A DNA stretch of 64,000 nucleotides, from positions 96,001 through 160,000 of IMG/VR virus record IMGVR_UViG_3300046744_000223. One strand, given 5' to 3'. The notes beneath the pieces are model-generated. The model saw nothing but the letters and a program-made list of their open reading frames with translations. It was not told the origin of the DNA and ran no database searches. A program made the position numbers and the translations under genes. Source of the DNA: a virus. Numbering within the stretch: the stretch's first letter is position 1; each line of letters opens with the position of its first letter. Below, one piece after another: positions 14,387 through 31,016 of this stretch.

Positions 14387-15218
14387 TTATATAACTTGTT
14401 ATGTAATTATCTATATCCTTAGTTGGCATCCAACCAAGTATTTCATTAGCAAGTGTATCTTCACAAAGAGTTACCAATGCTTCACCTGGCTTATCATCTT
14501 CATAAACAATATCATCATAGTTGAACATATCTGCTATGTCTTTAACAGAGTAGTTTTTACCTCTACCAAGTTCAAAGTCATACCCATATGCCCCTTGTTC
14601 CATAATCTTTACTAATGCGTCTACGATATCGTCAATATGAGTAAAGTCTCTACGTTTAGTTCCATCACCAAAAATAGTAAGCGACTTCCCATCTTCAATT
14701 GCCTTTTCCCATTTACCAATTAAAGTACAATACCCACCATCTTTTAGATGATGTGGTCCATATACATTGTAAAATCGTGTAATTGATGATTTCAACTCAT
14801 AATGTTTCTGATAAAGTGAAATGATGTCTTCACCCACATCTTTTGAGAATGTGTATGGATTCTTAAATCTACCACTATGTTTTGATGATGAACCAGCGTA
14901 TATGATTGGTACGTTATTATTAGCACACCAATCTACCAAGTTCAGAGTTCCATTTGCATTGGTAGTAAAATATTCTTTGGGTAATTTGAATGATGGTTGG
15001 ATACGGGCAATTGCTGCCAAGTGAAATACAACATCAACATCCATAAACTCAGTAATGTTTCTGAGGTCGTGGTTTAGATACTTACATCCTTTTTGATGAT
15101 TTTGTACATTACCAGTATAATAATTGTCGATAGATACTACATTGTGTCCATCTTTCAATAATCTTTTGATGAGGTTTGTTCCTACAAAACCTGCACCACC
15201 TGTAACTAATATTTTCAT
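14352..15218 (-). CDS. NAD-dependent sugar-nucleotide epimerase/dehydratase
   Basis: GGAGFVG, HLAA, PYTFSK (YxxxK), RFYNVYGP, RDFTHI; start MKILVTGG. Confidence 0.9.
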   Translation of the reverse strand: MKILVTGGAGFVGTNLIKRLLKDGHNVVSIDNYYTGNVQNHQKGCKYLNHDLRNITEFMDVDVVFHLAAIARIQPSFKLPKEYFTTNANGTLNLVDWCANNNVPIIYAGSSSKHSGRFKNPYTFSKDVGEDIISLYQKHYELKSSITRFYNVYGPHHLKDGGYCTLIGKWEKAIEDGKSLTIFGDGTKRRDFTHIDDIVDALVKIMEQGAYGYDFELGRGKNYSVKDIADMFNYDDIVYEDDKPGEALVTLCEDTLANEILGWMPTKDIDNYITSYINEKEHNIHTGN

Positions 15219-15853
15219 TATCCTAATCCTTTCCAAGTTGCACCATTACCAGTATAGTAGTGATTTACTTCAACTTTTGGTGTATATAAATATGATTTAC
15301 CATCTTTTAAAATATCAATTGCCCAATATCTATCTTCTTTTGTAGATAATTCCTCATCAAACGGAGTTTCTATCAAATCAGACTTATTGTAGAAACAAAA
15401 CGCATTATGTAAAAATGGTCTATCTTCAATAGTAGAATGCATATTAACCACCTCACTATCTACAAAATGAGACCATATATATCTCTTGTTAATTTTCTTT
15501 CCACGATATATTGGAATTTGATTACCAAATACTGCTGAATGAAACTTTAGTAATGATTGGACCGATTTCAAATCCATCTTAGTAATTTGAGAGTGTGCTG
15601 ATAGTATCAATATAATATCATTACTACACATATTGACTGCCACATTCAACGATTTACCTGGTGTATAGTTTTCTATATTAGAGGTTATTATATTGAGTCG
15701 TGTATTGAATAGTGTAACTACATCCATAGAATCATCAGTAGAGTTGTTATCCATCACAATCACCTCTGCATTAGGAATGTGGTCACATATAGATTGTAGT
15801 GTAAACCCAATATATTCACCCTCATTTCTATTTCTAACTATGATACTTATCAT
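15218..15853 (-). CDS. Glycosyltransferase family 2
   Basis: [23 protein letters not shown]...ED motifs. Confidence 0.8.
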
Positions 15854-16656
15854 TTAAATATCCTCGATAATGTTGTATAATCAATAGCTTGTGCTGGGTC
15901 ACTTATAGACATATCTGGATTGGGGTGTGATTCTATAATCAACCCATCAGCACCAATGGCCATTGCAGCTTTAGATACCGGCTCTACAAAATTACGATAT
16001 CCAGTTGAATGACTTGGGTCATATATGATTGGGATGTTAGTAAACTCTTTCAAAGCAGGAATCATCATAAGGTCAGGTGCCCAACGTGTTGTTGGGTGTA
16101 TGTGTCTATAAGATGGCATTCCAACTACACCTCTAAGACATATAGCAACATTTCTATTACCACCTACTAAGATTCGTTCAACTGCGCCTAAGATTTCATC
16201 AAGAGTTCCCCAAGTACCTCGTTTGAGTAATACTGGAGTATCTTGCTTTCCAAGAGCGTCTAATAGTGTATAGTTCTGAAAATTACGAGTTCCTATTTGA
16301 AATACATCGGCAACCTCACCAACTTCATCAATCATACTCGCATCCATTACTTCAGTAACAATTGGGAGTCCAGATTCCTTCTTAGCAATCGCCAACAACT
16401 CAAGACCTTCTTTACGAAGACCCTCTTTCCACCCATTAGTTTCTTTTGTGATTGGGAATGTACATGGTTTGTAAGCACCTGCTCTTAGAGCATCCGCGCC
16501 ACATCTTTTCATATCTTTTGCAATCTCAATGATTGACTCACCCTCAACTGAACAAGGACCTGCAATCTTGAAGTAATCCCAATTGAAGGTTTCGTTTGGG
16601 TCGATTGAAATGTTTAACTTACCTTGGTCTTTTAGTGACTGAATGTATTCGTTCAT
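15850..16656 (-). CDS. DAHP synthase class I-beta-like aldolase (variant KPCT motif)
   Basis: [43 protein letters not shown]; lacks regulatory domain. Confidence 0.85.
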
Positions 16657-17195
16657 TTGTAATATTGTTTTACTTTTTCTAAATCATCTTCAGTATGGAT
16701 ATCAGTAGCAGTTTCCTTTACACATCCGATTCGGTAACTAACTTTACCTTGTTTGAGTAAGTCGTACTTGAATAATCTCATTGCACCACTCCTACGATAT
16801 GTGTCATCTACCGTAATGATATCATCATACTTATTGTCAATCATATAGTCAAGACACTCATCAAGAGTGTTGACTCGATTGGGGTTATCTGGTTGTAATC
16901 CAACTACAATATCATACTCTTCTTTGATTTCATTGATGATGTGTTCATACACATCTACGACCTCAACATCCCCACACAAATCAGCAGGCCTCTTGTGGAA
17001 TCTTACTTCGTATTTATTACAAATCTCCTCAACAACATCACTCTCAGATGATACGATAACCTCTACATGGTATTGACTTGCGTTTGCGTAATCAACTGAA
17101 TGTAGGAACATGGGTTTACCATCAATCTCTCTAATGTTCTTGTGTTTTAGTCTTTTAGAATCCAGCTTTGCTGGAATTATTGCTAGTACTCTCAT
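16653..17195 (-). CDS. CMP-ulosonate synthetase (NeuA/KdsB-like cytidylyltransferase)
   Basis: [29 protein letters not shown]. Confidence 0.85.
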
Positions 17196-18115
17196 AATTT
17201 ATCTATACTCCATTTATATGCTTTGGTCTGACCTTGTATGGTCATTCCTCCTGTATGTGGTGTAAATATACAATTTAATTTTGAATTTTCCAAATTAAAG
17301 AATGGTGATTTAGATGGGTCACCAAACTCATTTTCGATAACATCAGTACCATACCCCCACAACTTACACTCGTGTAGTGCCTTTATGATATCAGTTTCAT
17401 TTACAATCTCACCACGGGATGTATTTACCAAGAACTTAACACCACGTGAAAGTAAATCATAATCAATCATATGTCGTGTTTCGTTTGTGACGTGTACGTG
17501 AAGTGATACTGCGTCACATATGTCAAACAACTCTTCCAATGTGTCAATATTAGACTCATCTGAATATGGGTCGTGGATGTAAACCTCAGCATCAAACGCT
17601 CTACAAAACTTAGCCATCATCTTACCCAATCTACCATAACCAACGATGCCAACTTTGTAGTCTTTCATTTGCTGGCCTACAAATGGTAGGTAATCCCAAC
17701 TTTTATCTCGTTTGGTCACATTGTTTGACATTGTGATGTTTCTCATCAAGTCAAGGAGTATCCCAAACGCCAATTCTGAGGTAGATGGTAGTTGATTGAT
17801 TAGTTCGAAGTCGTTTTTATGACATTGGATTTCAATACCCACCGATTCACAATATTCTAAGTCAATGTGATTTAGTCCGGTAGATGCGGTATTGATAATA
17901 CGAACCATAGTATTCCGTAACAACCCCTCATCAATTTTGTAACTTTGTTGATTTGGATTGCAGAATATAGTATCAATTGGGTTGTTAAGTAATAATTCTC
18001 TAACTTGGTGCCGTGTCCCATATTCTAACATAAAAACATCACCTTTTGAATCTAACAACTCAACTACCCCATCCAAATGGGTTACGGGAGTAACAACTGC
18101 AATCTTATTTTTCAT
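17192..18115 (-). CDS. D-isomer-specific 2-hydroxyacid dehydrogenase
   Basis: GIVGYGRLG, SLHVH, VNTSRG, TDV..E, TPHTGG. Confidence 0.88.
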   Translation of the reverse strand: MKNKIAVVTPVTHLDGVVELLDSKGDVFMLEYGTRHQVRELLLNNPIDTIFCNPNQQSYKIDEGLLRNTMVRIINTASTGLNHIDLEYCESVGIEIQCHKNDFELINQLPSTSELAFGILLDLMRNITMSNNVTKRDKSWDYLPFVGQQMKDYKVGIVGYGRLGKMMAKFCRAFDAEVYIHDPYSDESNIDTLEELFDICDAVSLHVHVTNETRHMIDYDLLSRGVKFLVNTSRGEIVNETDIIKALHECKLWGYGTDVIENEFGDPSKSPFFNLENSKLNCIFTPHTGGMTIQGQTKAYKWSIDKL

Positions 18116-18768
18116 TACATTGATTGTAAATCTTTCTCAAATAACTCAATACCCGTTGTAGTCAATGCGTGTTCGAACATTTGTTCAAGTACTTTCAATG
18201 GTACTGTGATTACATCAGCTCCTGCTTTTGCTGCTTTGACAACGTGCATTGGATGTCTTACACTTGAAACCATAATGTTAGTGTCAAACGAATATCTCTC
18301 GTTAAAGGTTTTTACCAACTCACCAATAAACAACATAGCATCATGACCCGTGTCATCAAGTCTACCAACTAACGGACAAATGTAAGTGGAATTAACATTA
18401 GCACATAGTATAGCCTGATTATGTGAGAATATCAGATGCATATTTGTTTTATCACCATTACGTGTTGCAGAATTACAGGCGTCAATACCTGCAGGTGAGA
18501 ATGGAATTTTAAAAACCAAATCAATGTCATTTGATTTTGCTTTTAATCGTTCGATATTAGATAAGATTTCATCCTTAGTAGTACCCCATGCTTCAACGTG
18601 AATTTCACCAACTGGCATAACTCCTCTGATTTTTTTAATCATATCGATGTCGTCATCCATACCATGTCGTTTCGCCAAAGTAGGGTTCGTAGTAACTCCG
18701 GCTAATATACCCATATCTGAGTATTTTTGAATTGAACTTAATTCTAAAGTGTCTAAAAATACTTTCAT
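18115..18768 (-). CDS. tal: Transaldolase (TalC/FSA family)
   Basis: FLDT, GVTTNPTL, VFKIP Schiff-base Lys, PLVGRLDD, SVRHP. Confidence 0.88.
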   Translation of the reverse strand: MKVFLDTLELSSIQKYSDMGILAGVTTNPTLAKRHGMDDDIDMIKKIRGVMPVGEIHVEAWGTTKDEILSNIERLKAKSNDIDLVFKIPFSPAGIDACNSATRNGDKTNMHLIFSHNQAILCANVNSTYICPLVGRLDDTGHDAMLFIGELVKTFNERYSFDTNIMVSSVRHPMHVVKAAKAGADVITVPLKVLEQMFEHALTTTGIELFEKDLQSM

Positions 18769-18779
18769 AATTTTACGTT

Positions 18780-19250
18780 TTATTTAATTGATTTTAATGT
18801 TACTTTTAACTGACCTTTACGTCTATCCGTAGTAAACTTTTGAGATACCATCTCGTAGTTACAGGTTATGCCATACGTATGTGCTATTCTATAATGATTT
18901 GATTTACCATTGATTCCACCATGCCACTTTGAACAAAAGTAACCAAACGACTCCTCATTAAAAACTCGCTTGTGTGTTGGGTCTGCTAATGCCATTGCAG
19001 ATGCTTCATGAGGTACTACGATATCTATCGTACCACCTGGTTTTAGGATTCGCCACAACTCATTCATAACAAAAATAATATTATCAATGTGTTCTAATAT
19101 CATAATTGCTTTGATTTCACTAACCGTATTATCATCGAGTGGAATTCCCTTTTCGATATCACAACAAATATCTGGATTTACTGATGGGTCAATATCAACA
19201 TTTAAGAATCCTGGAAACTTTTCTTTGTATGAACCTAAGTTTAATTTCAT
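18780..19250 (-). CDS. SAM-dependent methyltransferase (type 11-like)
   Basis: KLNLGS, NVDI, ILEHI, RILKPGG, DPTH. Confidence 0.8.
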   Translation of the reverse strand: MKLNLGSYKEKFPGFLNVDIDPSVNPDICCDIEKGIPLDDNTVSEIKAIMILEHIDNIIFVMNELWRILKPGGTIDIVVPHEASAMALADPTHKRVFNEESFGYFCSKWHGGINGKSNHYRIAHTYGITCNYEMVSQKFTTDRRKGQLKVTLKSIK

Positions 19251-19846
19251 AATTTTATTTTTTTTAGTGATAACAAATGATATGGATTACTATGTGCTTT
19301 TCTACCTGGCTGATACCACTCATCTACAACGTCAAATCCATTCTCGATTAGTTGACTACTGAGTAACTCTCCATCAATTTCCCAATGTTTATGATGTTCA
19401 CCTTTTAGACTTTTTGGTGTTTTTTGCATATGTGGGTGTGAAACTATCAAATGACCACCTAACTCTAATAACTCATAAAACTTCATACAAGTTTCAATTA
19501 GAGGATTCTCTAAGTGTTCTAATGTTTCTAAACTAACGATGACATCAAACTTACCATTCACATTATTCTGAAAATCAGATTCTAAATCAATTACATCGTA
19601 TGTTATATTTTCAGCACCCCAATACGTTCTACAATATTCTAATGCTTCTTCTGAGTTATCCAATGATAATACTGACTTGGCACTTTGTGCTAAAATATTA
19701 GAACCATACCCAATCCCACAAGCTGCATCTAATACGACATCACCATCACTAACAAACTTATTAGCAAACCGATACCTTTCTACGTGTTTTGGTTCAATTT
19801 CTTGAATATTTTTACCTATTTGGCGTTCGCCATTGAATCCATCCAT
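19247..19846 (-). CDS. Class I SAM-dependent methyltransferase
   Basis: H..RY, VLDAACGIGYG, FDVIVSLETLEH. Confidence 0.88.
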   Translation of the reverse strand: MDGFNGERQIGKNIQEIEPKHVERYRFANKFVSDGDVVLDAACGIGYGSNILAQSAKSVLSLDNSEEALEYCRTYWGAENITYDVIDLESDFQNNVNGKFDVIVSLETLEHLENPLIETCMKFYELLELGGHLIVSHPHMQKTPKSLKGEHHKHWEIDGELLSSQLIENGFDVVDEWYQPGRKAHSNPYHLLSLKKIKL

Positions 19847-19855
19847 AATTTTATT

Positions 19856-20164
19856 TTATATTTCTTCTATTCTTTTTGTTTTGTCACAAATCAATAAGTC
19901 GTATGGTGGTTTCTCACCTACACTCAGGTGGTGATATTTACATCCCCAATCATCCAATTGCTTCTTAGTTACATCATACCAATCAATTCCCGTAGTACTT
20001 CCACGAGCGGTCCAATAGGTTATAGTATGACCTTCATCATACAATATACGAATTTTTTCTATATTTTCCAAATTTGGAATAGCTTCTGAGTAATCTGGAT
20101 TTATATAAGTTCTATTTTCATAAAAACATATGGTCTCATCTATATCAACGTATATATTCATCAT
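19856..20164 (-). CDS. Minimal HAD phosphatase (capsule-biosynthesis type; candidate ulosonate-phosphate phosphatase)
   Basis: VDIDETI, WTARG, KPPYDLLICDK. Confidence 0.8.
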   Translation of the reverse strand: MMNIYVDIDETICFYENRTYINPDYSEAIPNLENIEKIRILYDEGHTITYWTARGSTTGIDWYDVTKKQLDDWGCKYHHLSVGEKPPYDLLICDKTKRIEEI

Positions 20165-20973
20165 CTAATAACTTTACATATATTATTTAACATTGTTTCA
20201 AAATCACTTAATTTAATTGAGCTTGTTCCATCCGATAGTGCGTTATCTGGATCATCATGTACTTCTAAGAACATACCATCTACACCTACGGCTGCAGCAG
20301 CCTTTGCTAATGGTTCTATAAAATGTTTATTAGACCCACTGCTACCACCAGAACACCCTTTTTGAACTGCATGAGTTGCATCAAATATAACGGGAGCGTA
20401 TTCTCTCATAGTTACTAAGTTTCTCATGTCCACTACATAGTCACCATACCCAAAGGTATTTCCACGTTCGGTTAGAACAACTTTGTTATTATCAGATGAT
20501 ACTACTTTATCAACCACCCTCTCCATATCCAATCCATTTACAAATTGTGCTTTTTTAATATTTACTGGAAGGTTTGTTTTTGCAGAAGCCACCAATAAAT
20601 CAGTTTGTCTACATAAAAATGCTGGTATTTGTATTAGGTCAATTGAATCTTTTAATACATCAGCTTGCCATGGTTCGTGTATGTCAGTAGTTACTGGAAT
20701 ATCTAATTCAGTACGGATTTTATTAAATATACGAGATGCTTCTTCAATAGAAACTCCTCTGTAGTTTTGTAACCGAGTTCGATTTGCTTTATCAAAAGAT
20801 GCTTTAAAAATAAAAGGAATACCCAACTTAGAAGTAATACGTTTTAACTCACGTGCCATATGTAAGGTATGTTCTTCACTTTCTATGACACATGGGCCGG
20901 ATATCAATACAAATGGCAATGATTCGCCAAATGTTATACCATCTCTTATTGTAACTGATTTAATTTTTTTCAT
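20161..20973 (-). CDS. kdsA: 3-deoxy-D-manno-octulosonate 8-phosphate synthase
   Basis: GPCVIES, KASFDKANRT, QIPAFLCRQTDL, ERG, DATH, EVH..P..ALSDG. Confidence 0.9.
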   Translation of the reverse strand: MKKIKSVTIRDGITFGESLPFVLISGPCVIESEEHTLHMARELKRITSKLGIPFIFKASFDKANRTRLQNYRGVSIEEASRIFNKIRTELDIPVTTDIHEPWQADVLKDSIDLIQIPAFLCRQTDLLVASAKTNLPVNIKKAQFVNGLDMERVVDKVVSSDNNKVVLTERGNTFGYGDYVVDMRNLVTMREYAPVIFDATHAVQKGCSGGSSGSNKHFIEPLAKAAAAVGVDGMFLEVHDDPDNALSDGTSSIKLSDFETMLNNICKVIR

Positions 20974-21613
20974 TTGCTAAACATTCTGCTATTTTAAAAT
21001 CACTTGGTGTATCAATGTCCCATGCTTCCAACATATCAACTGTTTTAATATATGGGTTGAAGCCAATTCTTCTTTTGTGTTTCTTATACATATCCTTCGA
21101 GAATATATATAATCCGGAGTTTTCAACAATAATTGGCTTTAAGTCTTGAGTACGACTAATAGTTGAAGACATATTATAATTTAAGGGATTACCATCATAC
21201 CAACAAAAATTGTTTACTTCATATGCTAAAAATGCCGAATCGTATTCGTTTGACTTTATTTTGTCTATCATATCTACTATGGTAGATTGTTTTACGAATG
21301 GGGAAGTTACTGATAAAAATACAATATAGTCTGTATTTATATCATCTATAACCGAATCCAATATATCGTTAAATGTAACATAGTCCCCATCAAACTTGGT
21401 ATCTCTTTTTAAGAATGTATAGTCTAAACTTGGATTTATGTAATCCACAACAGTGTCATCACTACAATACAAAAGTGTATCACTAATATCAGAAATTCCT
21501 GCTGCCTTGTCCACGCATATATTAACTAACGGATTACTATTAAGTGTCTTTATACTTTTTTGTGGTAATCGCTTACTATTTAGTCTAACTGTTATGTATG
21601 CTGTAAACTTCAT
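20960..21613 (-). CDS. Second CMP-ulosonate synthetase (NeuA-like)
   Basis: VRLNSKRLPQK, TSPF, RTQDL..ENSGLYI, DIDTPSDF. Confidence 0.85.
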   Translation of the reverse strand: MKFTAYITVRLNSKRLPQKSIKTLNSNPLVNICVDKAAGISDISDTLLYCSDDTVVDYINPSLDYTFLKRDTKFDGDYVTFNDILDSVIDDINTDYIVFLSVTSPFVKQSTIVDMIDKIKSNEYDSAFLAYEVNNFCWYDGNPLNYNMSSTISRTQDLKPIIVENSGLYIFSKDMYKKHKRRIGFNPYIKTVDMLEAWDIDTPSDFKIAECLANEKN

Positions 21614-22326
21614 TTTTTTCTTGTTCTTAGGTTATCATATTCGAATGGATTTAGAAGCATTATTTTATTTTCAGAAATCCAGTTTTGTACAAAGTCCATT
21701 TGTCTAAATCTATGCTTATCACCTTTAAAGTAATCTTTTCGATTCTTTTTGTGTTCAGCATCTTCTTCTTTATTGTAAAAGTTTAAAGCCCTGTCATCCT
21801 CACCACCTTCTAGGTAAAAGGTATGTCCTATAATTGTTATTTTAGAAAAGTTAATAATTGCCCTATCTAATGTAATTAAACCAGTACCAACTCCTATGAA
21901 CTTTCCTAAAGCTTGATTTTTTTTATACTTATGTCTGAACTCCTTACCACCATAGTGTTTCGTTAAAAACCCCCAAGTATCACTATGTACATTTACATTA
22001 TCAAACTCATGGTATCTATGACTCATCTCGTGACCTACATCATCTTTTCTTGGCCAAATTGTAAGCGGTTCGGATTTGATTGGATGAAAATAATCCCATC
22101 TATAATTGCCAGTAGTAGACCAAATATCTATTTTCCTACCTGTGTGTTGATACATACCATCGAAAAAACATTTATTTACTCTAATTACAGTTTTAAACTT
22201 ATCAATATATTTACCAAAATTATAACAATTCAAAGATGGGCTTGTACCAACTACTATTACATCGGTTTGTGGTTCAAATGTCTCAAAGTAGTTGTCTAAC
22301 TTTTTAATATTGTCCAAAATCACCAC
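21610..22326 (-). CDS. GT29 (sialyltransferase)-like glycosyltransferase
   Basis: Sialylmotif-L-like VVGTSPSL..FG..ID.F..VIRVN....G...TGRK; motif-S-like GTGL. Confidence 0.65.
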   Translation of the reverse strand: MVILDNIKKLDNYFETFEPQTDVIVVGTSPSLNCYNFGKYIDKFKTVIRVNKCFFDGMYQHTGRKIDIWSTTGNYRWDYFHPIKSEPLTIWPRKDDVGHEMSHRYHEFDNVNVHSDTWGFLTKHYGGKEFRHKYKKNQALGKFIGVGTGLITLDRAIINFSKITIIGHTFYLEGGEDDRALNFYNKEEDAEHKKNRKDYFKGDKHRFRQMDFVQNWISENKIMLLNPFEYDNLRTRKK

Positions 22327-22862
22327 ACCATTACTTTGTTATTCTCAATAAGGGTATTTACATAATCTATTTCAAGATTCCAACTATGATTGCCAGGTAT
22401 ATCTGATGACCCCTCTACTCCCCAATAATGATTAGTCTTTCCAAAATCAAATCCAACCAAGTTTAACACCTCATATGTATCTAACAAATAGTTAATTGTT
22501 AGAATGCCAGTAGACATTTTTTTAGAACCTAATTTGAAATCGGATATGTGGTAATCAAATCCATCATAGTTACTCTTTATATCCTCCAATCTACCAACTC
22601 GCTTATCAGTATTAGTAATCGTGGTAGTTTTAATTAAGTTTGGGTGTTGGTTTTTTATACTCTCTATGTTATTTACATAGTAGTTTCTACTATCGGTAGT
22701 AAGTGCATTGTTAAGTATCCAATGAGTACATTTGTTACCTATATAATCTTCAAATCCACGTACTCTGAATCTATTGAATCTATAAACGTGGTCGTATGAA
22801 TCAATCAGACTACCATGCTTTTGGGTTGTGTCGGCATTACCTACTAAGATACATTTATTCAT
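22320..22862 (-). CDS. GT29 (sialyltransferase)-like glycosyltransferase
   Basis: CILVGN..G.LIDSYD.VYRFN....G...IG.K (motif L), STG...GFDF (motif S), HY, H....E (motif VS). Confidence 0.75.
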   Translation of the reverse strand: MNKCILVGNADTTQKHGSLIDSYDHVYRFNRFRVRGFEDYIGNKCTHWILNNALTTDSRNYYVNNIESIKNQHPNLIKTTTITNTDKRVGRLEDIKSNYDGFDYHISDFKLGSKKMSTGILTINYLLDTYEVLNLVGFDFGKTNHYWGVEGSSDIPGNHSWNLEIDYVNTLIENNKVMVW

Positions 22863-23539
22863 TTCTTACCTGTGTGCTTTCCGGTTTGTAAAAAATATTC
22901 ATTGTCTCTACTATCACCTTTCAAAAAGTGATACTCAAATCCAAGTTTCCACATAACATAGTCAAAACTTAATTGGTCTCTACGTGAGTTATACTTTATT
23001 TCATCCCACCATGCTTCCATAGATTCAATGACGTGTTCATCATTATGATTTCTTAATATAATTGGATTTGTAGCTAACCCATTATTTTGTGGATATCCCT
23101 CATCTAAGTATCTCTGAACTTGGGTATACATGGTTTGTGGATTGTCCTTGTAATTACCACCATTAGACTTACCCAAACTCATTATTGCCTCATACTCTTT
23201 GTAAATACAATCTCGTGGGTCCAGTCTTGTTTGATTATGGTCAAATACCTGATACGGGTGTTTGTTTACCAATGGTGTAAAATCTTTTCTAACCAATATA
23301 TTACCATCAATCCATAACGAACAATCGTATTCTGATAAATATCTATGTGGTAATATTTTGTATTTTTTAGCGTTACGATTTGGGTCTGAATATATTGGTG
23401 TAGATTTAATAATCTTCCAAGTATCCGATTTTATATCCATATCAGTAAAGCATATATAATCAACACCATCTATTATTTGTTGATTTTCATGTAGATTATC
23501 ATACCCACCAAAGATTGAAGTATAAACGGCTATTTTCAT
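22859..23539 (-). CDS. DUF616 (TOD1/MUCI70-like) glycosyltransferase
   Basis: VYTSIFGGYD, CFTD, KILPHRYL, WIDGN, RDQLSF. Confidence 0.8.
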   Translation of the reverse strand: MKIAVYTSIFGGYDNLHENQQIIDGVDYICFTDMDIKSDTWKIIKSTPIYSDPNRNAKKYKILPHRYLSEYDCSLWIDGNILVRKDFTPLVNKHPYQVFDHNQTRLDPRDCIYKEYEAIMSLGKSNGGNYKDNPQTMYTQVQRYLDEGYPQNNGLATNPIILRNHNDEHVIESMEAWWDEIKYNSRRDQLSFDYVMWKLGFEYHFLKGDSRDNEYFLQTGKHTGKK

Positions 23540-24384
23540 ATGTAATGCTCACTTCTTACTAAGTTAGAGCCAAGATTGGGTCTAGCTACTGTGTATGTTG
23601 GTGTATAATTTGCAATCGTATCATTAACACCGGTCTGATTACCAACGTTAAATTTAGCCTTGCTTTTGATATATAATTGAATACGTGTGTCAACGTGTCT
23701 GAGGTCTAAACACTTTTTATATTTCAATCCAAATTGATTTTTTGTAGTCCAATAAAACATTGGTAATTTATATTCATTGATTTTTGATTGGATTTTCTCA
23801 ACTCCAGTGCCATCAAATCTATTTGATATCAATAGAGTACCAAAATCACCATTAACGTGTTCTCTAATAATAGAATTACCCAACTCTCTTTCAGAATCAG
23901 ACCAATAAACTTCCGGCTCAATATCGTCAAAAGAATCAAATTGCCAAAACTTTAATATTTCTTCCATAAGTGGGATTTTATAAACACCTAAGTCATCATA
24001 TATTCTATAATGGTCATTGAATACCTCCCCTTCAAATGAATCTACAAATCCATCTATATATGGGTTGTTGTCAAAAATAGTATGAACCACTTGAAACGGG
24101 TCTGACCATGATGACCAATTTTGCTCTAAGTGACCAAATAACTCTCTTAACAATTTTGGTGATGGTATCCAAACCTTACAATCAGGATATTTTTCTTTTA
24201 ATTTACGTGGAAACGCAGAGATAATTCCCCAATCCCCAACACCAAAACAAGTTCTTAGGATTACAAAGTTTTTACCTTCCAAGTATTCATCAGGAATATA
24301 GGAAGGGTCACTTAAAGGAAACCCTAACTTATCAACCTCTTGTATAGGAAGTACTTTATTATCGAATGTTCTCCAAAATACCAT
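23536..24384 (-). CDS. Putative GT9-like glycosyltransferase
   Basis: GVGDW...PRKLKEKYPDCKV, NNPYID, VGNQTG; start MVFW coupled to upstream stop. Confidence 0.6.
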   Translation of the reverse strand: MVFWRTFDNKVLPIQEVDKLGFPLSDPSYIPDEYLEGKNFVILRTCFGVGDWGIISAFPRKLKEKYPDCKVWIPSPKLLRELFGHLEQNWSSWSDPFQVVHTIFDNNPYIDGFVDSFEGEVFNDHYRIYDDLGVYKIPLMEEILKFWQFDSFDDIEPEVYWSDSERELGNSIIREHVNGDFGTLLISNRFDGTGVEKIQSKINEYKLPMFYWTTKNQFGLKYKKCLDLRHVDTRIQLYIKSKAKFNVGNQTGVNDTIANYTPTYTVARPNLGSNLVRSEHYI

Positions 24385-25220
24385 TATGAAACTGCCCTTC
24401 CTTCCATACCTTCCCAATCCTTATCAGTTCTAACCTCTTGATTAGTTTTCTCAGTAGCCGATAGGACATTGTTTGTTGTGTTTAATAATTCCGTAAGTTT
24501 CAACATAGCTGATAAATCTTTAGGGAAACAATGTCCACCAAATCCTAAATCACCATCAGGACCAGGAACAGCCCAATGTGATTTACCTAACCTATCATCA
24601 TATGTCGCATATTCTACAACCTTATCATAGTCCAATGATAGTTTATCACATACTTGATAAATCTCATTTGCAAAAGAAACTTTTGTAGCTAAGAACGTAT
24701 TAGTTACATACTTTACCATTTCTGCGTGTGTAGAGCCAGTCTTTATGATTGGTGTGGTAGGAAAAACTAAACGATAGATTTGTTTAAGTGGAGTGGTTCC
24801 TTTACGTGGGCCCCCTAAGATAATCTTTGATTGGTTCTCAAAGTCTTGTACTGCGTTTGCTTCGGTTAAGAATTCCGGATTGAACACAATTGTGATACTC
24901 TTAAAGTTATTGTTAAACATCTCGGTTGTAGTTGGTGGAATTGTAGATTTGATAACCACAACAACATCCTTACCTACGTTATTGATTTGAGACAATACCG
25001 ATTCCACAATTGAAATGTCACACGACCCATCAACTCTCTTCATTGGAGTGGGTACACATACAAATACAACATCCGAAGCTTCGACTACCTCTTTTAGGGT
25101 ATCCGTAGTTCTTTTAGACCCATCAAGGTCATAGGTTAAAACGCTAAAATAGTTTTTAAACTTTTGGTAAATGGCATTTCCTACAAAGCCTTGACCCACT
25201 ATTCCAATATTATATTTCAT
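24384..25220 (-). CDS. ugd: UDP-glucose/GDP-mannose dehydrogenase family (no C-terminal domain)
   Basis: GQGFVG, VCVPTP, KSTIPP, NPEFL, AEMVKY..N, GFGGHCFPKD. Confidence 0.88.
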   Translation of the reverse strand: MKYNIGIVGQGFVGNAIYQKFKNYFSVLTYDLDGSKRTTDTLKEVVEASDVVFVCVPTPMKRVDGSCDISIVESVLSQINNVGKDVVVVIKSTIPPTTTEMFNNNFKSITIVFNPEFLTEANAVQDFENQSKIILGGPRKGTTPLKQIYRLVFPTTPIIKTGSTHAEMVKYVTNTFLATKVSFANEIYQVCDKLSLDYDKVVEYATYDDRLGKSHWAVPGPDGDLGFGGHCFPKDLSAMLKLTELLNTTNNVLSATEKTNQEVRTDKDWEGMEGRAVS

Positions 25221-29180: not shown

Positions 29181-31016
29181 CTAATTTTTAAAATACATCA
29201 TATCGTTGATTACTAATATATCAACATCAGACTCATCAAATAATTTCATTGCATCTTCGGGCGTTTCCACAATAGGTTCACCTTTTACATTCAGTGAAGT
29301 ATTTAGTACAACTGGCACACCAGTTATGTCCTTAAATTTAGAAATCAAATCGTAAAATATAGGGTTATGGTCTCTTGTTAAAGTCTGAACACGTGATGTA
29401 TTGTCTATATGAACTGCTGATGGTATTTCTTGTGGCTTTCTACATGGTACAGTATGTAACATAAATGGTGACTCAAAATCCATATTGAACCACTCCTCCT
29501 TATCTTCGGTTAACACTACTGGCGCAAATGGTCTAAACCATTCTCTGAATTTAACTCTTGAGTTTAGAATATCCTTCATCTCTTTATTACGAGGGTCACT
29601 TATAAAAGAACGATTACCCAATGCACGTGGACCTACTTCAGAGTGACCTTGATACCAACACACAATTTTACCATCAGCAATATTTTGAGCAACTACATCC
29701 AAATCTAATGGAACTGCATTTGTGTCAGTTTCAGGTTGGTGGTCATATGTAACACCTAAATAAGCAAGTTCATTTGTAGTGTAGTTAACACGTTTACCAC
29801 CTAAATTAAAGTGATAGTAAAACAATGCCGAACCAGCTGGTATCCCATCATCACCACACGCTGGGAAAAAGTGTATATTCTTAAATTTTGTTTCTTTTAA
29901 TATCTTATAATTTGCGTTACAATTTAAAAATGTACCACCGGCTAAACACAAATTACCATCGTTGAAATTTTTAGTATCTTCATATAATTCATTGATATAC
30001 TTAATAAGAGCACGTTCTAATAAATATTGAATACTTGCAGCAATATCCATGACTTCTTGAGAATCTGATTCTTCTTTTGAATACACTGTTTGGTATATTC
30101 TATTTATAAACTGATAACCTGGTTCTTTATTTACGTACTCTTTACGTGCTGTACTTATGAATGGGTATCTACCACTGATTTCTGAAAATAACCAATCACT
30201 ATATCGGTGATATTCAGTACTAATTTGATTAAATGGGAGACACCACTTTTCCCACTGCTCCATGGTCTTACCATTTACATTACCGAATGAAGATAATCCC
30301 ATTAATGTACCTGCTTTTAATGTTCCCGGCCCTAACCCACAAAACTCAGTAGCTACATCATAGAAGTTCCCCAACATAAATTCAGGAGATTTAAAAGATT
30401 GTAGTATACTACCATTACCAACCATTGAGGTACTACAATTTTTTGGAGTATGCATCGAAGCGTCGGCCGTAAATACAGCTGCCCTTGGAAATGGTGATGT
30501 ATAAAATGCAGCTGCAGCATGGGCAGTATGATGTCTTACAAAGCAACCATTAATTGGTCGGGTGTACCCCTCTATATCAATTATCAATGGAAATGATTCA
30601 CTATGTTGTATCACTTCAGGCCCAAATGGAGGGTCGATGTTGTCTATAAATTCCGGCAGAGATATCCCAAGCCCATCAACATATTCTGGTTTGTATGGAA
30701 ACTCATCCAAGTGGTTGAGTATTCTCGTGTCTTGTCGTTGTGCGCCAAATGTATTAAGTGGATAAACGGAATTGGTTGGGCTGTATAGTTTTATCCAATT
30801 ACAATTATTATAGTTCCAAAATGCCATTGTGATACAATCTATATCATCAATAGTCATTTCGTTTACTTGTAGAAAGTGGTTAAAGAACTCTCTACTTAAT
30901 ACTTCATCTTTCTTTACCCTACTGTATCTTTCAACGCTTAATGATGATACTAATTTGCCATTACGTACTAACGATAATGATGCATCATGGCCGGTGTGCA
31001 TTCCTATTATATTCAT
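29181..31016 (-). CDS. Carbamoyltransferase (NodU/CmcH/TobZ family)
   Basis: GHDAS, ERYSRVK, HHTAHA, LMGL, LAGG..LN, GDDG, EVGPRALGNRS, KFREWFRPFAP, LNTSLN. Confidence 0.92.
   Translation of the reverse strand: MNIIGMHTGHDASLSLVRNGKLVSSLSVERYSRVKKDEVLSREFFNHFLQVNEMTIDDIDCITMAFWNYNNCNWIKLYSPTNSVYPLNTFGAQRQDTRILNHLDEFPYKPEYVDGLGISLPEFIDNIDPPFGPEVIQHSESFPLIIDIEGYTRPINGCFVRHHTAHAAAAFYTSPFPRAAVFTADASMHTPKNCSTSMVGNGSILQSFKSPEFMLGNFYDVATEFCGLGPGTLKAGTLMGLSSFGNVNGKTMEQWEKWCLPFNQISTEYHRYSDWLFSEISGRYPFISTARKEYVNKEPGYQFINRIYQTVYSKEESDSQEVMDIAASIQYLLERALIKYINELYEDTKNFNDGNLCLAGGTFLNCNANYKILKETKFKNIHFFPACGDDGIPAGSALFYYHFNLGGKRVNYTTNELAYLGVTYDHQPETDTNAVPLDLDVVAQNIADGKIVCWYQGHSEVGPRALGNRSFISDPRNKEMKDILNSRVKFREWFRPFAPVVLTEDKEEWFNMDFESPFMLHTVPCRKPQEIPSAVHIDNTSRVQTLTRDHNPIFYDLISKFKDITGVPVVLNTSLNVKGEPIVETPEDAMKLFDESDVDILVINDMMYFKN

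What the first reader, a model, noticed from the sequence alone, without database searches (positions are those of the whole stretch)
15850..16656. DAHP-synthase homolog with KPCT replacing the conserved KPR(T/S) substrate motif
Seen: GAYKPCTFP, and CLRG where the family has CERG. Metal ligands (Cys in GPCS, His in DPSH, Glu in IESH, Asp in SD) and PEP-binding residues are retained. Established: the Arg of KPR(S/T) binds the phosphate of erythrose-4-phosphate in class I-beta DAHP synthases. Inference: altered aldose specificity, possibly a non-phosphorylated or carboxylated acceptor. This would fit the absence of a phosphatase in module A and direct coupling to a cytidylyltransferase.
Basis: partly seen in the sequence, partly recalled or inferred. 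Interest (0 to 1): 0.75.

Follow-up and report, generated by a model that had tools for sequence, protein, structure and literature searches.

The report
Phage DAHP-synthase-like sugar-acid synthase
A marine T4-like phage carries a re-tooled copy of the first enzyme of aromatic amino-acid synthesis that has lost its sugar-phosphate pocket; it sits in a conserved four-gene kit that most likely makes and CMP-activates a still unidentified Kdo-like acidic sugar.

Summary
ORF 15850-16656 (-) is an intact class I-beta DAHP-synthase-fold protein. All metal and PEP ligands are present. KPCT replaces KPR(T/S) and CLRG replaces CERG.

KPCT is not a one-off. It is invariant in 122 close homologues and in 15 further loci, and independent metagenomes carry the same codon. 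All Arg-less relatives (Cys, Leu, Met, Ile or Ala at that site) form one clade inside class I-beta DAHP synthases.

The gene lies in a conserved cassette: 2-hydroxyacid dehydrogenase, cytidylyltransferase, synthase, GT2. The cassette holds no phosphatase. Fusion proteins elsewhere link the cytidylyltransferase to the dehydrogenase and to a GT2. In the same window, KdsA keeps its Arg and has a HAD phosphatase next to it.

The best reading is a PEP-dependent synthase of a non-phosphorylated 3-deoxy-2-ulosonic acid that is CMP-activated directly. The acceptor is unknown; Dha is only a possibility.

CLRG is not diagnostic. The transaldolase is not part of the conserved module.

This scan has already met the same clade on other DNA (bacterial cassettes and another phage kit). 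I found no paper describing it.

The parts
15850..16656 (-). DAHP-synthase-like (class I-beta fold) ulosonic-acid synthase, 268 aa, KPCT variant
   Evidence: It scores below every NCBIfam DAHPS/KDO8PS cut-off. AF2 model pLDDT 90.2; 1vs1 TM 0.82, rmsd 1.6.
16462..16464 (-). TGT codon of Cys65, at the position of the E4P-phosphate Arg of KPR(T/S)
   Evidence: Invariant in 122/122 homologues and 15/15 loci. No listed difference at this codon in the four runs laid.
16426..16452 (-). Loop after the motif (residues 69-77) holding about 6 extra residues, with invariant G75 and W76; E78 next to it (just outside the range) is also invariant
   Evidence: Lower pLDDT (about 67-71) in the model.
16111..16128 (-). 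Six-residue insertion VVGMPS (residues 177-182) after CLRG
16653..17195 (-). Short (180 aa) CTP_transf_3 cytidylyltransferase; its stop overlaps the synthase start by 4 bases
   Evidence: Pfam 3e-17. KdsB and PseF models match below cut-off. It lies upstream of the synthase in 13 other loci and is fused to a 2-hydroxyacid dehydrogenase in L021. Sequence.
17192..18115 (-). D-2-hydroxyacid dehydrogenase family protein, 307 aa, with NAD motif and an Arg/Glu/His catalytic set
   Evidence: Conserved partner in the cassette.
15218..15853 (-). Small GT2 glycosyltransferase, 211 aa, overlapping the synthase stop
   Evidence: It lies directly downstream of the synthase in 11 of the other loci. Fused GT2-CTP_transf_3 in L022.
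18115..18768 (-). Transaldolase/FSA-type gene. It is a neighbour here but not part of the conserved cassette
   Evidence: No homologue in any of the 20 other loci searched.
19856..21613 (-). Contrast module: HAD phosphatase (DIDET), genuine KdsA (KANRT, above the NCBIfam cut-off) and a second cytidylyltransferase

Best explanation
The protein is a metal-dependent, PEP-using aldol-type synthase descended from class I-beta DAHP synthase. Its acceptor pocket has been rebuilt so that it no longer takes erythrose 4-phosphate.

Proposed pathway:
1. The synthase condenses PEP with a non-phosphorylated aldehyde. The aldehyde may carry a distal carboxylate. The product is a free 3-deoxy-2-ulosonic acid.
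2. The product needs no phosphatase. The cytidylyltransferase encoded just upstream converts it directly into a CMP-sugar.
3. The adjacent GT2, and perhaps the nearby GT29-like enzymes, transfer the sugar.
4. The conserved 2-hydroxyacid dehydrogenase either prepares the acceptor or tailors an alpha-hydroxy/alpha-keto-acid end of the sugar.

Shown here: the intact fold, the metal and PEP ligands, the loss of the phosphate ligands, the clade and the synteny. Inferred: the chemistry, the identity of the acceptor and the order of the steps.
For: - Fold and catalytic set are intact. C35, R58, K63, R124, K145, R175, H216 and D253 are invariant in 122 homologues and E242 is kept in 121 of them. These map to the ligand list of PMC6362186.
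- Two of the three residues after KP are changed in the motif KPRTSP: Arg to Cys and Ser to Phe/Tyr. PMC6362186 names the Arg and the Thr as E4P ligands. The Thr is kept.
- All Arg-less relatives form one clade (support 0.95; 10 of 149 representatives). The bacterial sister branch reads KP[L/M/I]T in 118 of 118.
- The order 2-hydroxyacid dehydrogenase > cytidylyltransferase > synthase > GT2 recurs in loci of 54-84% identity.
- Other Arg-less members also sit next to CTP_transf_3. A KPRT control in the same genome sample does not.
- Fusions link the partners: CTP_transf_3 with 2-Hacid_dh in a SAR11 single-cell genome, and GT2 with CTP_transf_3 in an Elusimicrobia MAG.
- No phosphatase was found in or between cassette genes.
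- In the same window KdsA keeps KANRT and has a HAD phosphatase with DIDET beside it.
- The protein scores below every curated DAHPS and KDO8PS cut-off.
Against: - There is no biochemical evidence.
- Thr66 is retained, and new conserved basic residues (K77, R184) could form a relocated phosphate site.
- The HAD phosphatase about 3 kb away, or a host phosphatase, could serve this module in this phage.
- The structure tool gives no coordinates, so the pocket could not be inspected.
- GT2 is not a family known for CMP-ulosonic acid donors.
- The cytidylyltransferase is unusually short (180 aa).
- The role of the dehydrogenase is unexplained.
Confidence: 0.7

Rival explanations
1. The enzyme still uses a phosphorylated acceptor (E4P, threose-4-P or a pentose-5-P). 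A relocated phosphate site (T66 plus K77 and/or R184) binds it. The product is dephosphorylated by the nearby HAD or a host phosphatase before CMP activation, as in the Kdo pathway.
For: T66 is invariant. K77 (93%) and R184 (100%) are conserved basic residues in the remodelled loops. A HAD phosphatase with DIDET lies at 19856-20164.
Against: Most cassette-bearing loci have no KdsA/HAD module within 6 kb. The genes inserted in the cassettes are methyltransferases or proteins of unknown function, not phosphatases. Arg and Ser are replaced by hydrophobic or aromatic residues across the whole clade.
Confidence: 0.15
2. It is an ordinary DAHP synthase carried as an auxiliary metabolic gene to boost host aromatic amino-acid synthesis. 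On this reading, KPCT is a tolerated variant.
For: About 45% identity to characterised class I-beta DAHP synthases and the same fold. Sources annotate the homologues as 3-deoxy-7-phosphoheptulonate synthase.
Against: The motif Arg is invariant (28/28) in the canonical members of A2 and present in 133 of the 135 representatives outside the Arg-less clade, yet absent from this entire clade. The protein is below all NCBIfam cut-offs. It is always embedded in glycan cassettes with a cytidylyltransferase. No other shikimate-pathway gene lies beside it in the window.
Confidence: 0.05
3. It is a catalytically dead or purely structural or regulatory paralogue.
For: None specific. Earlier notes of this scan say some partner genes in the bacterial cassettes have lost catalytic residues (untested here).
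Against: Of the metal and PEP ligands, eight are invariant over 122 homologues and the ninth (E242) is kept in 121. Mean column conservation is 0.87, and the new loop residues are invariant too.
Confidence: 0.03

Closest known systems
Unregulated class I-beta DAHP synthases (Aeropyrum pernix 1VS1, Pyrococcus furiosus 1ZCO, catalytic barrel of Thermotoga maritima 1RZM)
   Same: Same (beta/alpha)8 fold (TM 0.82, rmsd 1.6 A). About 44% identity to 1vs1. The same Cys/His/Glu/Asp metal site and the same PEP ligands. KP is retained rather than the KAN of KDO8PS. No regulatory domain.
   Different: The Arg and Ser of KPRTSP are replaced by Cys and Phe/Tyr. There are two 6-residue loop insertions, plus KRGTW and CLRG. 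The protein is below the curated family cut-offs. Its context is a glycan cassette, not aromatic biosynthesis.
Kdo pathway: KdsA (KDO8P synthase), KdsC phosphatase, KdsB (CMP-Kdo synthetase)
   Same: The pathway logic is the same: a PEP-aldol synthase of the DAHP_synth_1 family, followed by a CTP_transf_3 cytidylyltransferase and a glycosyltransferase. A genuine copy of this pathway lies 3.5 kb away in the same island.
   Different: There is no KANRS motif, no phosphatase and no sugar-phosphate isomerase. A 2-hydroxyacid dehydrogenase is the conserved extra partner. Only 20-24% identity to the window's KdsA.
Bacterial NeuB-type nonulosonic acid synthases with NeuA/PseF/LegF
   Same: They use a non-phosphorylated aldose with PEP, need no phosphatase, and are followed directly by CMP activation. 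This is the functional analogy proposed here. There is a weak Pfam NeuB match (25 bits).
   Different: They are a different branch of the TIM-barrel superfamily. This protein has no SAF domain and its sequence is far closer to DAHP synthase (171 against 25 bits).
Arg-less DAHPS-like proteins of bacterial glycan cassettes (KP[L/M/I]T, CERG..PHTH, KRH[F/P]G); no paper found, met repeatedly by this scan
   Same: They are the sister branch in the same clade. They also lie next to CTP_transf_3 and GT2 and also lack the Arg.
   Different: The residue at the Arg site differs (Leu or Met against Cys). The loops differ. The oxidoreductase partners differ: Gfo/Idh/MocA and AroE-like there, a 2-hydroxyacid dehydrogenase here.

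Membership tests
Class I-beta DAHP synthase (EC 2.5.1.54) | DAHP_synth_1 (beta/alpha)8 fold | tested here: met
   Pfam 3e-50. AF2 model against 1vs1: TM 0.82.
Class I-beta DAHP synthase (EC 2.5.1.54) | Cys/His/Glu/Asp metal site and PEP ligands (Arg, Lys, Arg, Lys, Arg) | tested here: met
   C35, H216 and D253 (metal) and R58, K63, R124, K145 and R175 (PEP) are invariant in 122 homologues; the fourth metal ligand, E242, is kept in 121.
Class I-beta DAHP synthase (EC 2.5.1.54) | KPR(S/T) motif whose Arg and Thr bind E4P | tested here: not met
   The motif reads KPCT, and the following Ser is Phe/Tyr. The motif's role is taken from PMC6362186.
Class I-beta DAHP synthase (EC 2.5.1.54) | Score above curated family cut-offs (TIGR01361, NF006421) | tested here: not met
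   235.7 against 267.75 bits, and 264.5 against 335 bits.
Class I-beta DAHP synthase (EC 2.5.1.54) | E4P + PEP to DAHP activity | not testable with these tools
   Needs an enzyme assay.
KDO8P synthase (KdsA) | KANRS motif and score above TIGR01362 / NF003543 | tested here: not met
   KPCT is present instead. Scores are 88.6 against 314 bits and 91.5 against 242 bits. The window's real KdsA passes (355.9 bits, KANRT).
CMP-ulosonic acid biosynthesis cassette (synthase + CTP_transf_3 + glycosyltransferase) | PEP-condensing synthase adjacent to, and co-conserved with, a CTP_transf_3 cytidylyltransferase and a glycosyltransferase | tested here: met
   The genes overlap in the window. Synteny is conserved in viral, SAR11, Bacteroidetes-SAG and other loci. 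Fusion proteins link the partners.
CMP-ulosonic acid biosynthesis cassette (synthase + CTP_transf_3 + glycosyltransferase) | Formation of a CMP-linked alpha-keto acid sugar | not testable with these tools
   Needs LC-MS of nucleotide sugars or a coupled assay.
Arg-less DAHPS-like clade | A non-basic residue at the Arg position, and placement inside the clade on a tree | tested here: met
   The clade holds 10 of 149 representatives, support 0.95, and P0001 lies inside it.

The most novel reading that the evidence does not exclude
The acceptor is a tetruronic acid (D-threuronate or erythruronate). The cassette would then make a CMP-activated 3-deoxy-hept-2-ulosaric acid, that is Dha or an isomer. 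Dha is the dicarboxylic sugar of plant rhamnogalacturonan-II, prasinophyte scales and Rhizobiaceae LPS. Its biosynthesis and activated form are still listed as unknown in a 2025 review (PMC12168206).

In favour:
- The partners are enzyme families that act on carboxylate-bearing substrates: a 2-hydroxyacid dehydrogenase everywhere, and an MR/MLE enolase-superfamily enzyme in the SAR11 version.
- The island also holds a Kdo module, GT29-like and TOD1/MUCI70-like transferases and methyltransferases.

Against:
- From what I recall of the KDO8PS literature, retention of KP rather than KAN suggests an erythro-type (arabino) rather than a lyxo product.
- Hydrophobic Leu or Cys at the Arg site does not look like a carboxylate ligand.
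- No plant or Rhizobiaceae homologue could be shown here.
Probability: 0.08. Interest if true: 0.85.

Novelty: new variant of a known kind. Interest (0 to 1): 0.66.

Why it matters
Annotation pipelines label these genes 3-deoxy-7-phosphoheptulonate synthase, so they would be counted as shikimate-pathway genes. The evidence instead points to a third branch of the DAHPS/KDO8PS family that feeds a CMP-sugar pathway.

The branch occurs in marine T4-like phage contigs, a Pelagibacteraceae (SAR11) single-cell assembly and several other bacterial assemblies. The window's own version recurs in seawater and viral metagenomes of several studies.

If this is right:
- It defines a new acidic surface sugar, and with it a likely determinant of phage-host recognition in the ocean.
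- It gives a natural example of how a sugar-phosphate aldolase is converted to a non-phosphorylated acceptor.
- It provides a compact four-gene kit that can be expressed and assayed directly.
- It is also one of the few candidate routes to dicarboxylic ulosaric acids such as Dha.

Tried and rejected
1. Transaldolase as part of the pathway. No other locus has a transaldolase homologue near the cassette. I treat it as a neighbouring auxiliary gene.
2. CLRG as a specificity marker. It occurs in 11 KPR(T/S) representatives. I guess that L174 is a structural change co-varying with Tyr161 to Arg, but this is not shown.
3. Sequencing error or one-off change. Rejected.
4. Literature. Searches for DAH7PS with KPRS, DAHP synthase with cytidylyltransferase or ulosonic or nonulosonic, and heptulosonic or heptulosaric acid found no description of this clade. 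They only confirmed that Dha synthesis is unknown.
5. Dha via Rhizobiaceae. A tblastn of P0130 against PLSDB plasmids gave no hit above 52% identity; the listed ones carry aroF or DAHP-synthase annotation where annotated.
6. Pocket overlay. The AF2 model is confident, but no coordinates are returned. The remodelled loops have the lowest pLDDT. The requested overlay on E4P-bound 1RZM therefore could not be made.
7. RNA evidence. Two marine metatranscriptome runs of one study hold contigs of 91-94% identical relatives over the synthase and dehydrogenase. DNA carry-over cannot be excluded, so I do not claim expression.
8. ESM Atlas added nothing beyond the family label.
Contexts of the Nitrospirota-type members P0280 and P0281 could not be read.
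10. Host. The DNA polymerase is 48% identical to Microcystis phage Mel-JY01. Near-relatives of the cassette lie in Bacteroidetes and Pelagibacteraceae single-cell assemblies. The host is not settled.

Full report
SETTING

The window is bases 96001-160000 of a 172,940-base IMG/VR virus record estimated about 90% complete. All sizeable ORFs lie on the minus strand. GC is 32-38%. It encodes T4-type replication genes: a phrog_262 DNA polymerase, a DnaB-like helicase and ribonucleotide reductase. The polymerase's nearest isolate is Microcystis phage Mel-JY01 at 48% identity. It is therefore a distant T4-like marine phage of unknown host. Near-identical DNA occurs in seawater and viral metagenomes of several studies.

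THE OBSERVATION

It matches Pfam DAHP_synth_1 at 3e-50. Its best solved relatives are the class I-beta DAHP synthases of A. pernix, P. furiosus and T. maritima (E 1e-54 to 1e-49). KDO8P synthases follow at 1e-19.

- The printed alignments put Cys65 opposite the Arg of KPRT and Leu174 opposite the Glu of CERG.
- They also reveal two six-residue insertions, one after KPCTFP and one after CLRG.
- An AlphaFold model built on a 60-sequence alignment has mean pLDDT 90.2. It superposes on 1vs1 with TM 0.82 and rmsd 1.6 A. The two remodelled loops are the least confident parts.

PMC6362186 summarises the crystal work. In the motif VLRGGAFKPRT the first Arg and the Lys bind PEP. The second Arg and the Thr are the E4P ligands seen in the T. 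maritima complex. The metal ligands are Cys, His, Glu and Asp. In this protein all metal and PEP ligands are present and only the E4P Arg is changed. The Ser that follows in KPRTSP is also changed, to Phe here and Tyr in most homologues.

The protein scores below every curated NCBIfam cut-off for DAHP synthase and KDO8P synthase.

KPCT IS NOT A ONE-OFF

- The 120 best hits in the 5.8-billion-protein collection (75-94% identity, many from Tara and other marine samples) all read GAYKPCT, and all but one read AICLRG.
- In an alignment of 122 homologues, eight of the nine metal and PEP ligands (C35, R58, K63, R124, K145, R175, H216, D253) are invariant and E242 is kept in 121.
- Cys65, Thr66, Trp76, Glu78, Thr148, Trp149, Arg161, Leu174, Pro181, Tyr183, Arg184 and Trp192 are invariant too.
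- Eleven viral contigs and four bacterial-assembly contigs found by back-translated patterns (58-84% identity) all carry KPCT, CLRG, KRG[T/S]W and both insertions.
- Contigs of a 2019 viral metagenome and a 2021 marine metagenome cover the Cys codon (TGT, 16464-16462) with one and zero differences over 937 and 750 bases.

ONE CLADE OF ARG-LESS ENZYMES

A search of 1.84 billion cluster representatives collapses the family to one full-length representative (P0122, 57% identity, KPCT) plus fragments. Ordinary DAHP synthases at 43-53% identity follow.

- In 149 aligned domains, 133 have KPR(T/S). Two more keep the Arg in KART. Fourteen lack the Arg.
- On a FastTree tree rooted with the window's KdsA, ten of the fourteen form a single clade (support 0.95) nested among class I-beta enzymes. 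Five of these ten are the query and its close homologues, which I added to the tree by hand.
- The clade has three parts:
  - P0125 (KPCT, CERG, no insertions).
  - The marine/phage branch (KPCT, CLRG, insertions).
  - A bacterial branch (KPLT, KPCT or KPAT, with CERG..PHTH and KRH[F/P]G).
- A profile search with the bacterial branch returned 118 further proteins. All have Leu, Met or Ile at the Arg position. Some lie on contigs over 1 Mb, and two carry Nitrospirota (Nitrospirae) names.
- The four KPST or KPTT proteins carry N-terminal domains and fall outside the clade.
- CLRG also occurs in 11 KPR(T/S) proteins, so it is not a marker of the change.

CONTEXT

In the window, four genes overlap head to tail:
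- 2-hydroxyacid dehydrogenase (17192-18115)
- CTP_transf_3 cytidylyltransferase (16653-17195)
- the synthase (15850-16656)
- a small GT2 (15218-15853)

I ran a tblastn of the window's island proteins against all fetched loci.
- The dehydrogenase lies upstream of the synthase in 13 loci and the cytidylyltransferase in 13. The GT2 lies directly downstream in 11.
- Some loci have a methyltransferase or genes of unknown function inserted.
- P0122's contig has exactly the same four genes.
- No locus has a transaldolase homologue, so the transaldolase at 18115-18768 is a neighbour and not part of the module.
- No phosphatase was detected in or between cassette genes.

More distant Arg-less members are also beside cytidylyltransferases:
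- P0125 lies with a GT2 and two CTP_transf_3 genes.
- P0130 lies with two CTP_transf_3 genes, a Gfo/Idh/MocA oxidoreductase, an AroE-like gene, a NeuB-like gene and a GT2.
- P0234 lies with one CTP_transf_3 gene.

In a 401-genome sample of the class that holds the SAR11 assembly, five genomes have an Arg-less member.
- One is the SAR11 assembly itself, which has the fused cytidylyltransferase upstream.
- Two more have a CTP_transf_3 match 1-2 kb from the synthase.
- The last two have no CTP_transf_3 match on the synthase's contig; at least one of these contigs ends within about 1 kb of the gene.
- A KPRT hit in the same sample has none on its contig.

Two fusion proteins tie the partners together. 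In the Pelagibacteraceae single-cell assembly the operon reads:
1. a CTP_transf_3 fused to a 2-Hacid_dh (570 aa)
2. an MR/MLE enolase-superfamily protein
3. a second 2-hydroxyacid dehydrogenase
4. the synthase

It lies in an island with an ABC exporter and a NeuB gene. In an Elusimicrobia MAG a GT2 overlaps the synthase start, and a GT2 fused to a CTP_transf_3 follows.

INTERNAL CONTRAST

About 3.5 kb away the same island carries a real Kdo module.
- The KdsA scores above the NCBIfam cut-off (355.9 against 242 bits) and reads FDKANRT, so the phosphate-binding Arg is kept.
- A 102-aa HAD protein with the DIDET nucleophile motif precedes it.
- A second cytidylyltransferase and two GT29-like genes follow it.

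The phage therefore holds one synthase with the Arg and a phosphatase, and one synthase with neither.

MECHANISM

The evidence best fits a PEP- and metal-dependent condensation with an aldehyde that carries no phosphate at the position where E4P does. That reaction would give a free 3-deoxy-2-ulosonic acid that is CMP-activated directly. This is the logic of bacterial NeuB pathways carried out on a DAHP-synthase scaffold.

Cys, Leu or Met together with Phe or Tyr at the former phosphate site suggest a closed or apolar sub-pocket. So do two new invariant Trp residues (W76, W149). This part is inference only.

The partner dehydrogenase has the NAD motif and the Arg/Glu/His set of its family. Its family acts on alpha-hydroxy and alpha-keto acids. 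The MR/MLE enzyme of the SAR11 version acts next to carboxylates. Together these hint that an intermediate carries a carboxylate apart from C1. That could be a uronic-type acceptor or an ulosaric product. I put a carboxylated acceptor at roughly one in three, and Dha itself below one in ten.

From what I recall of the KDO8PS literature (KANRS against KPR(S/T)), retention of KP rather than KAN favours an erythro-type acceptor. That counts against the lyxo configuration of Dha.

Dha biosynthesis is still listed as unknown in 2012 and 2025 reviews.

RIVALS

- A relocated phosphate site plus an external phosphatase cannot be excluded (0.15).
- An ordinary DAHP synthase (0.05) fits neither the clade-wide loss of the Arg nor the context.
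- A dead paralogue (0.03) does not fit the conservation.

PRIOR NOTES AND LITERATURE

Notes of this scan show that the same clade was met many times before on other DNA, as bacterial cassettes with AroE-like and Gfo/Idh/MocA partners and as another phage kit. First readers also noted the two modules and a Dha-like idea on this genome. I used these as leads only. The clade, the synteny and the motif statistics above were computed here. I found no paper describing the clade.

LIMITS

- The structure tool returns no coordinates.
- Nothing here is biochemical.

VERDICT

The gene is a phage and marine variant of an undescribed DAHPS-derived ulosonic-acid synthase clade. Its product is unknown. I rate it a new variant of a known kind, interest about 0.66.

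Noticed in passing
window 21610-23539: Two GT29 (sialyltransferase-fold) genes and a TOD1/MUCI70-like glycosyltransferase follow the Kdo module in a phage. By Pfam name (sialyltransferase GT29; plant TOD1/MUCI70) these are mainly eukaryotic families. GT29b-like genes also lie beside the KPCT cassette in other viral loci, for example L011 at 48% identity.
   Followed up: partly
L021 4213-8846 (Pelagibacteraceae single-cell assembly AG-333-D08): A cellular version of the cassette. It reads: a 570-aa fusion of CTP_transf_3 with a 2-hydroxyacid dehydrogenase, an MR/MLE enolase-superfamily protein, a second 2-hydroxyacid dehydrogenase, then the KPCT synthase. It lies beside an ABC exporter, a GT2, an epimerase and a NeuB gene.
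   Followed up: partly
L022 6509-11057 (Elusimicrobia groundwater MAG): A 497-aa GT2 with an unassigned C-terminal half overlaps the start of a KPCT synthase (58% identity). A 502-aa GT2 fused to a CTP_transf_3 lies downstream.
   Followed up: partly
proteins P0169, P0174, P0194, P0265: DAHP synthases with N-terminal domains that read KPST or KPTT in place of KPRT. They fall outside the Arg-less clade. Their context and meaning are unknown.
   Followed up: no
protein P0257: This protein keeps KPRT but combines CLRG and KRHPG, features otherwise seen in the Arg-less clade. It may be an intermediate form.
   Followed up: no
window 18115-18768: An FSA/TalC-type transaldolase overlaps the dehydrogenase start by one base, yet it is absent from all other cassette loci. 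It is probably an independent auxiliary metabolic gene.
   Followed up: yes
window 18780-19846: Two SAM methyltransferase genes lie between the two ulosonic-acid modules. Methyltransferases are also inserted in or next to the cassette in L003, L009 and L012, which hints at an O-methylated sugar.
   Followed up: no
window 24384-25220: The UDP-glucose/GDP-mannose dehydrogenase-like ORF is only 278 aa. Its N-domain match starts at profile position 64 and no C-terminal domain was detected. It may be truncated or split.
   Followed up: no
window 29181-31016: A 611-aa Nol-like carbamoyltransferase (phrog_1601, 3e-121) lies at the edge of the glycan island.
   Followed up: no
L004 3836-5976: The basal KPCT member P0125 sits with a GT2, two CTP_transf_3 genes, a radical-SAM enzyme and a methyltransferase. 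This is a third cassette flavour.
   Followed up: no
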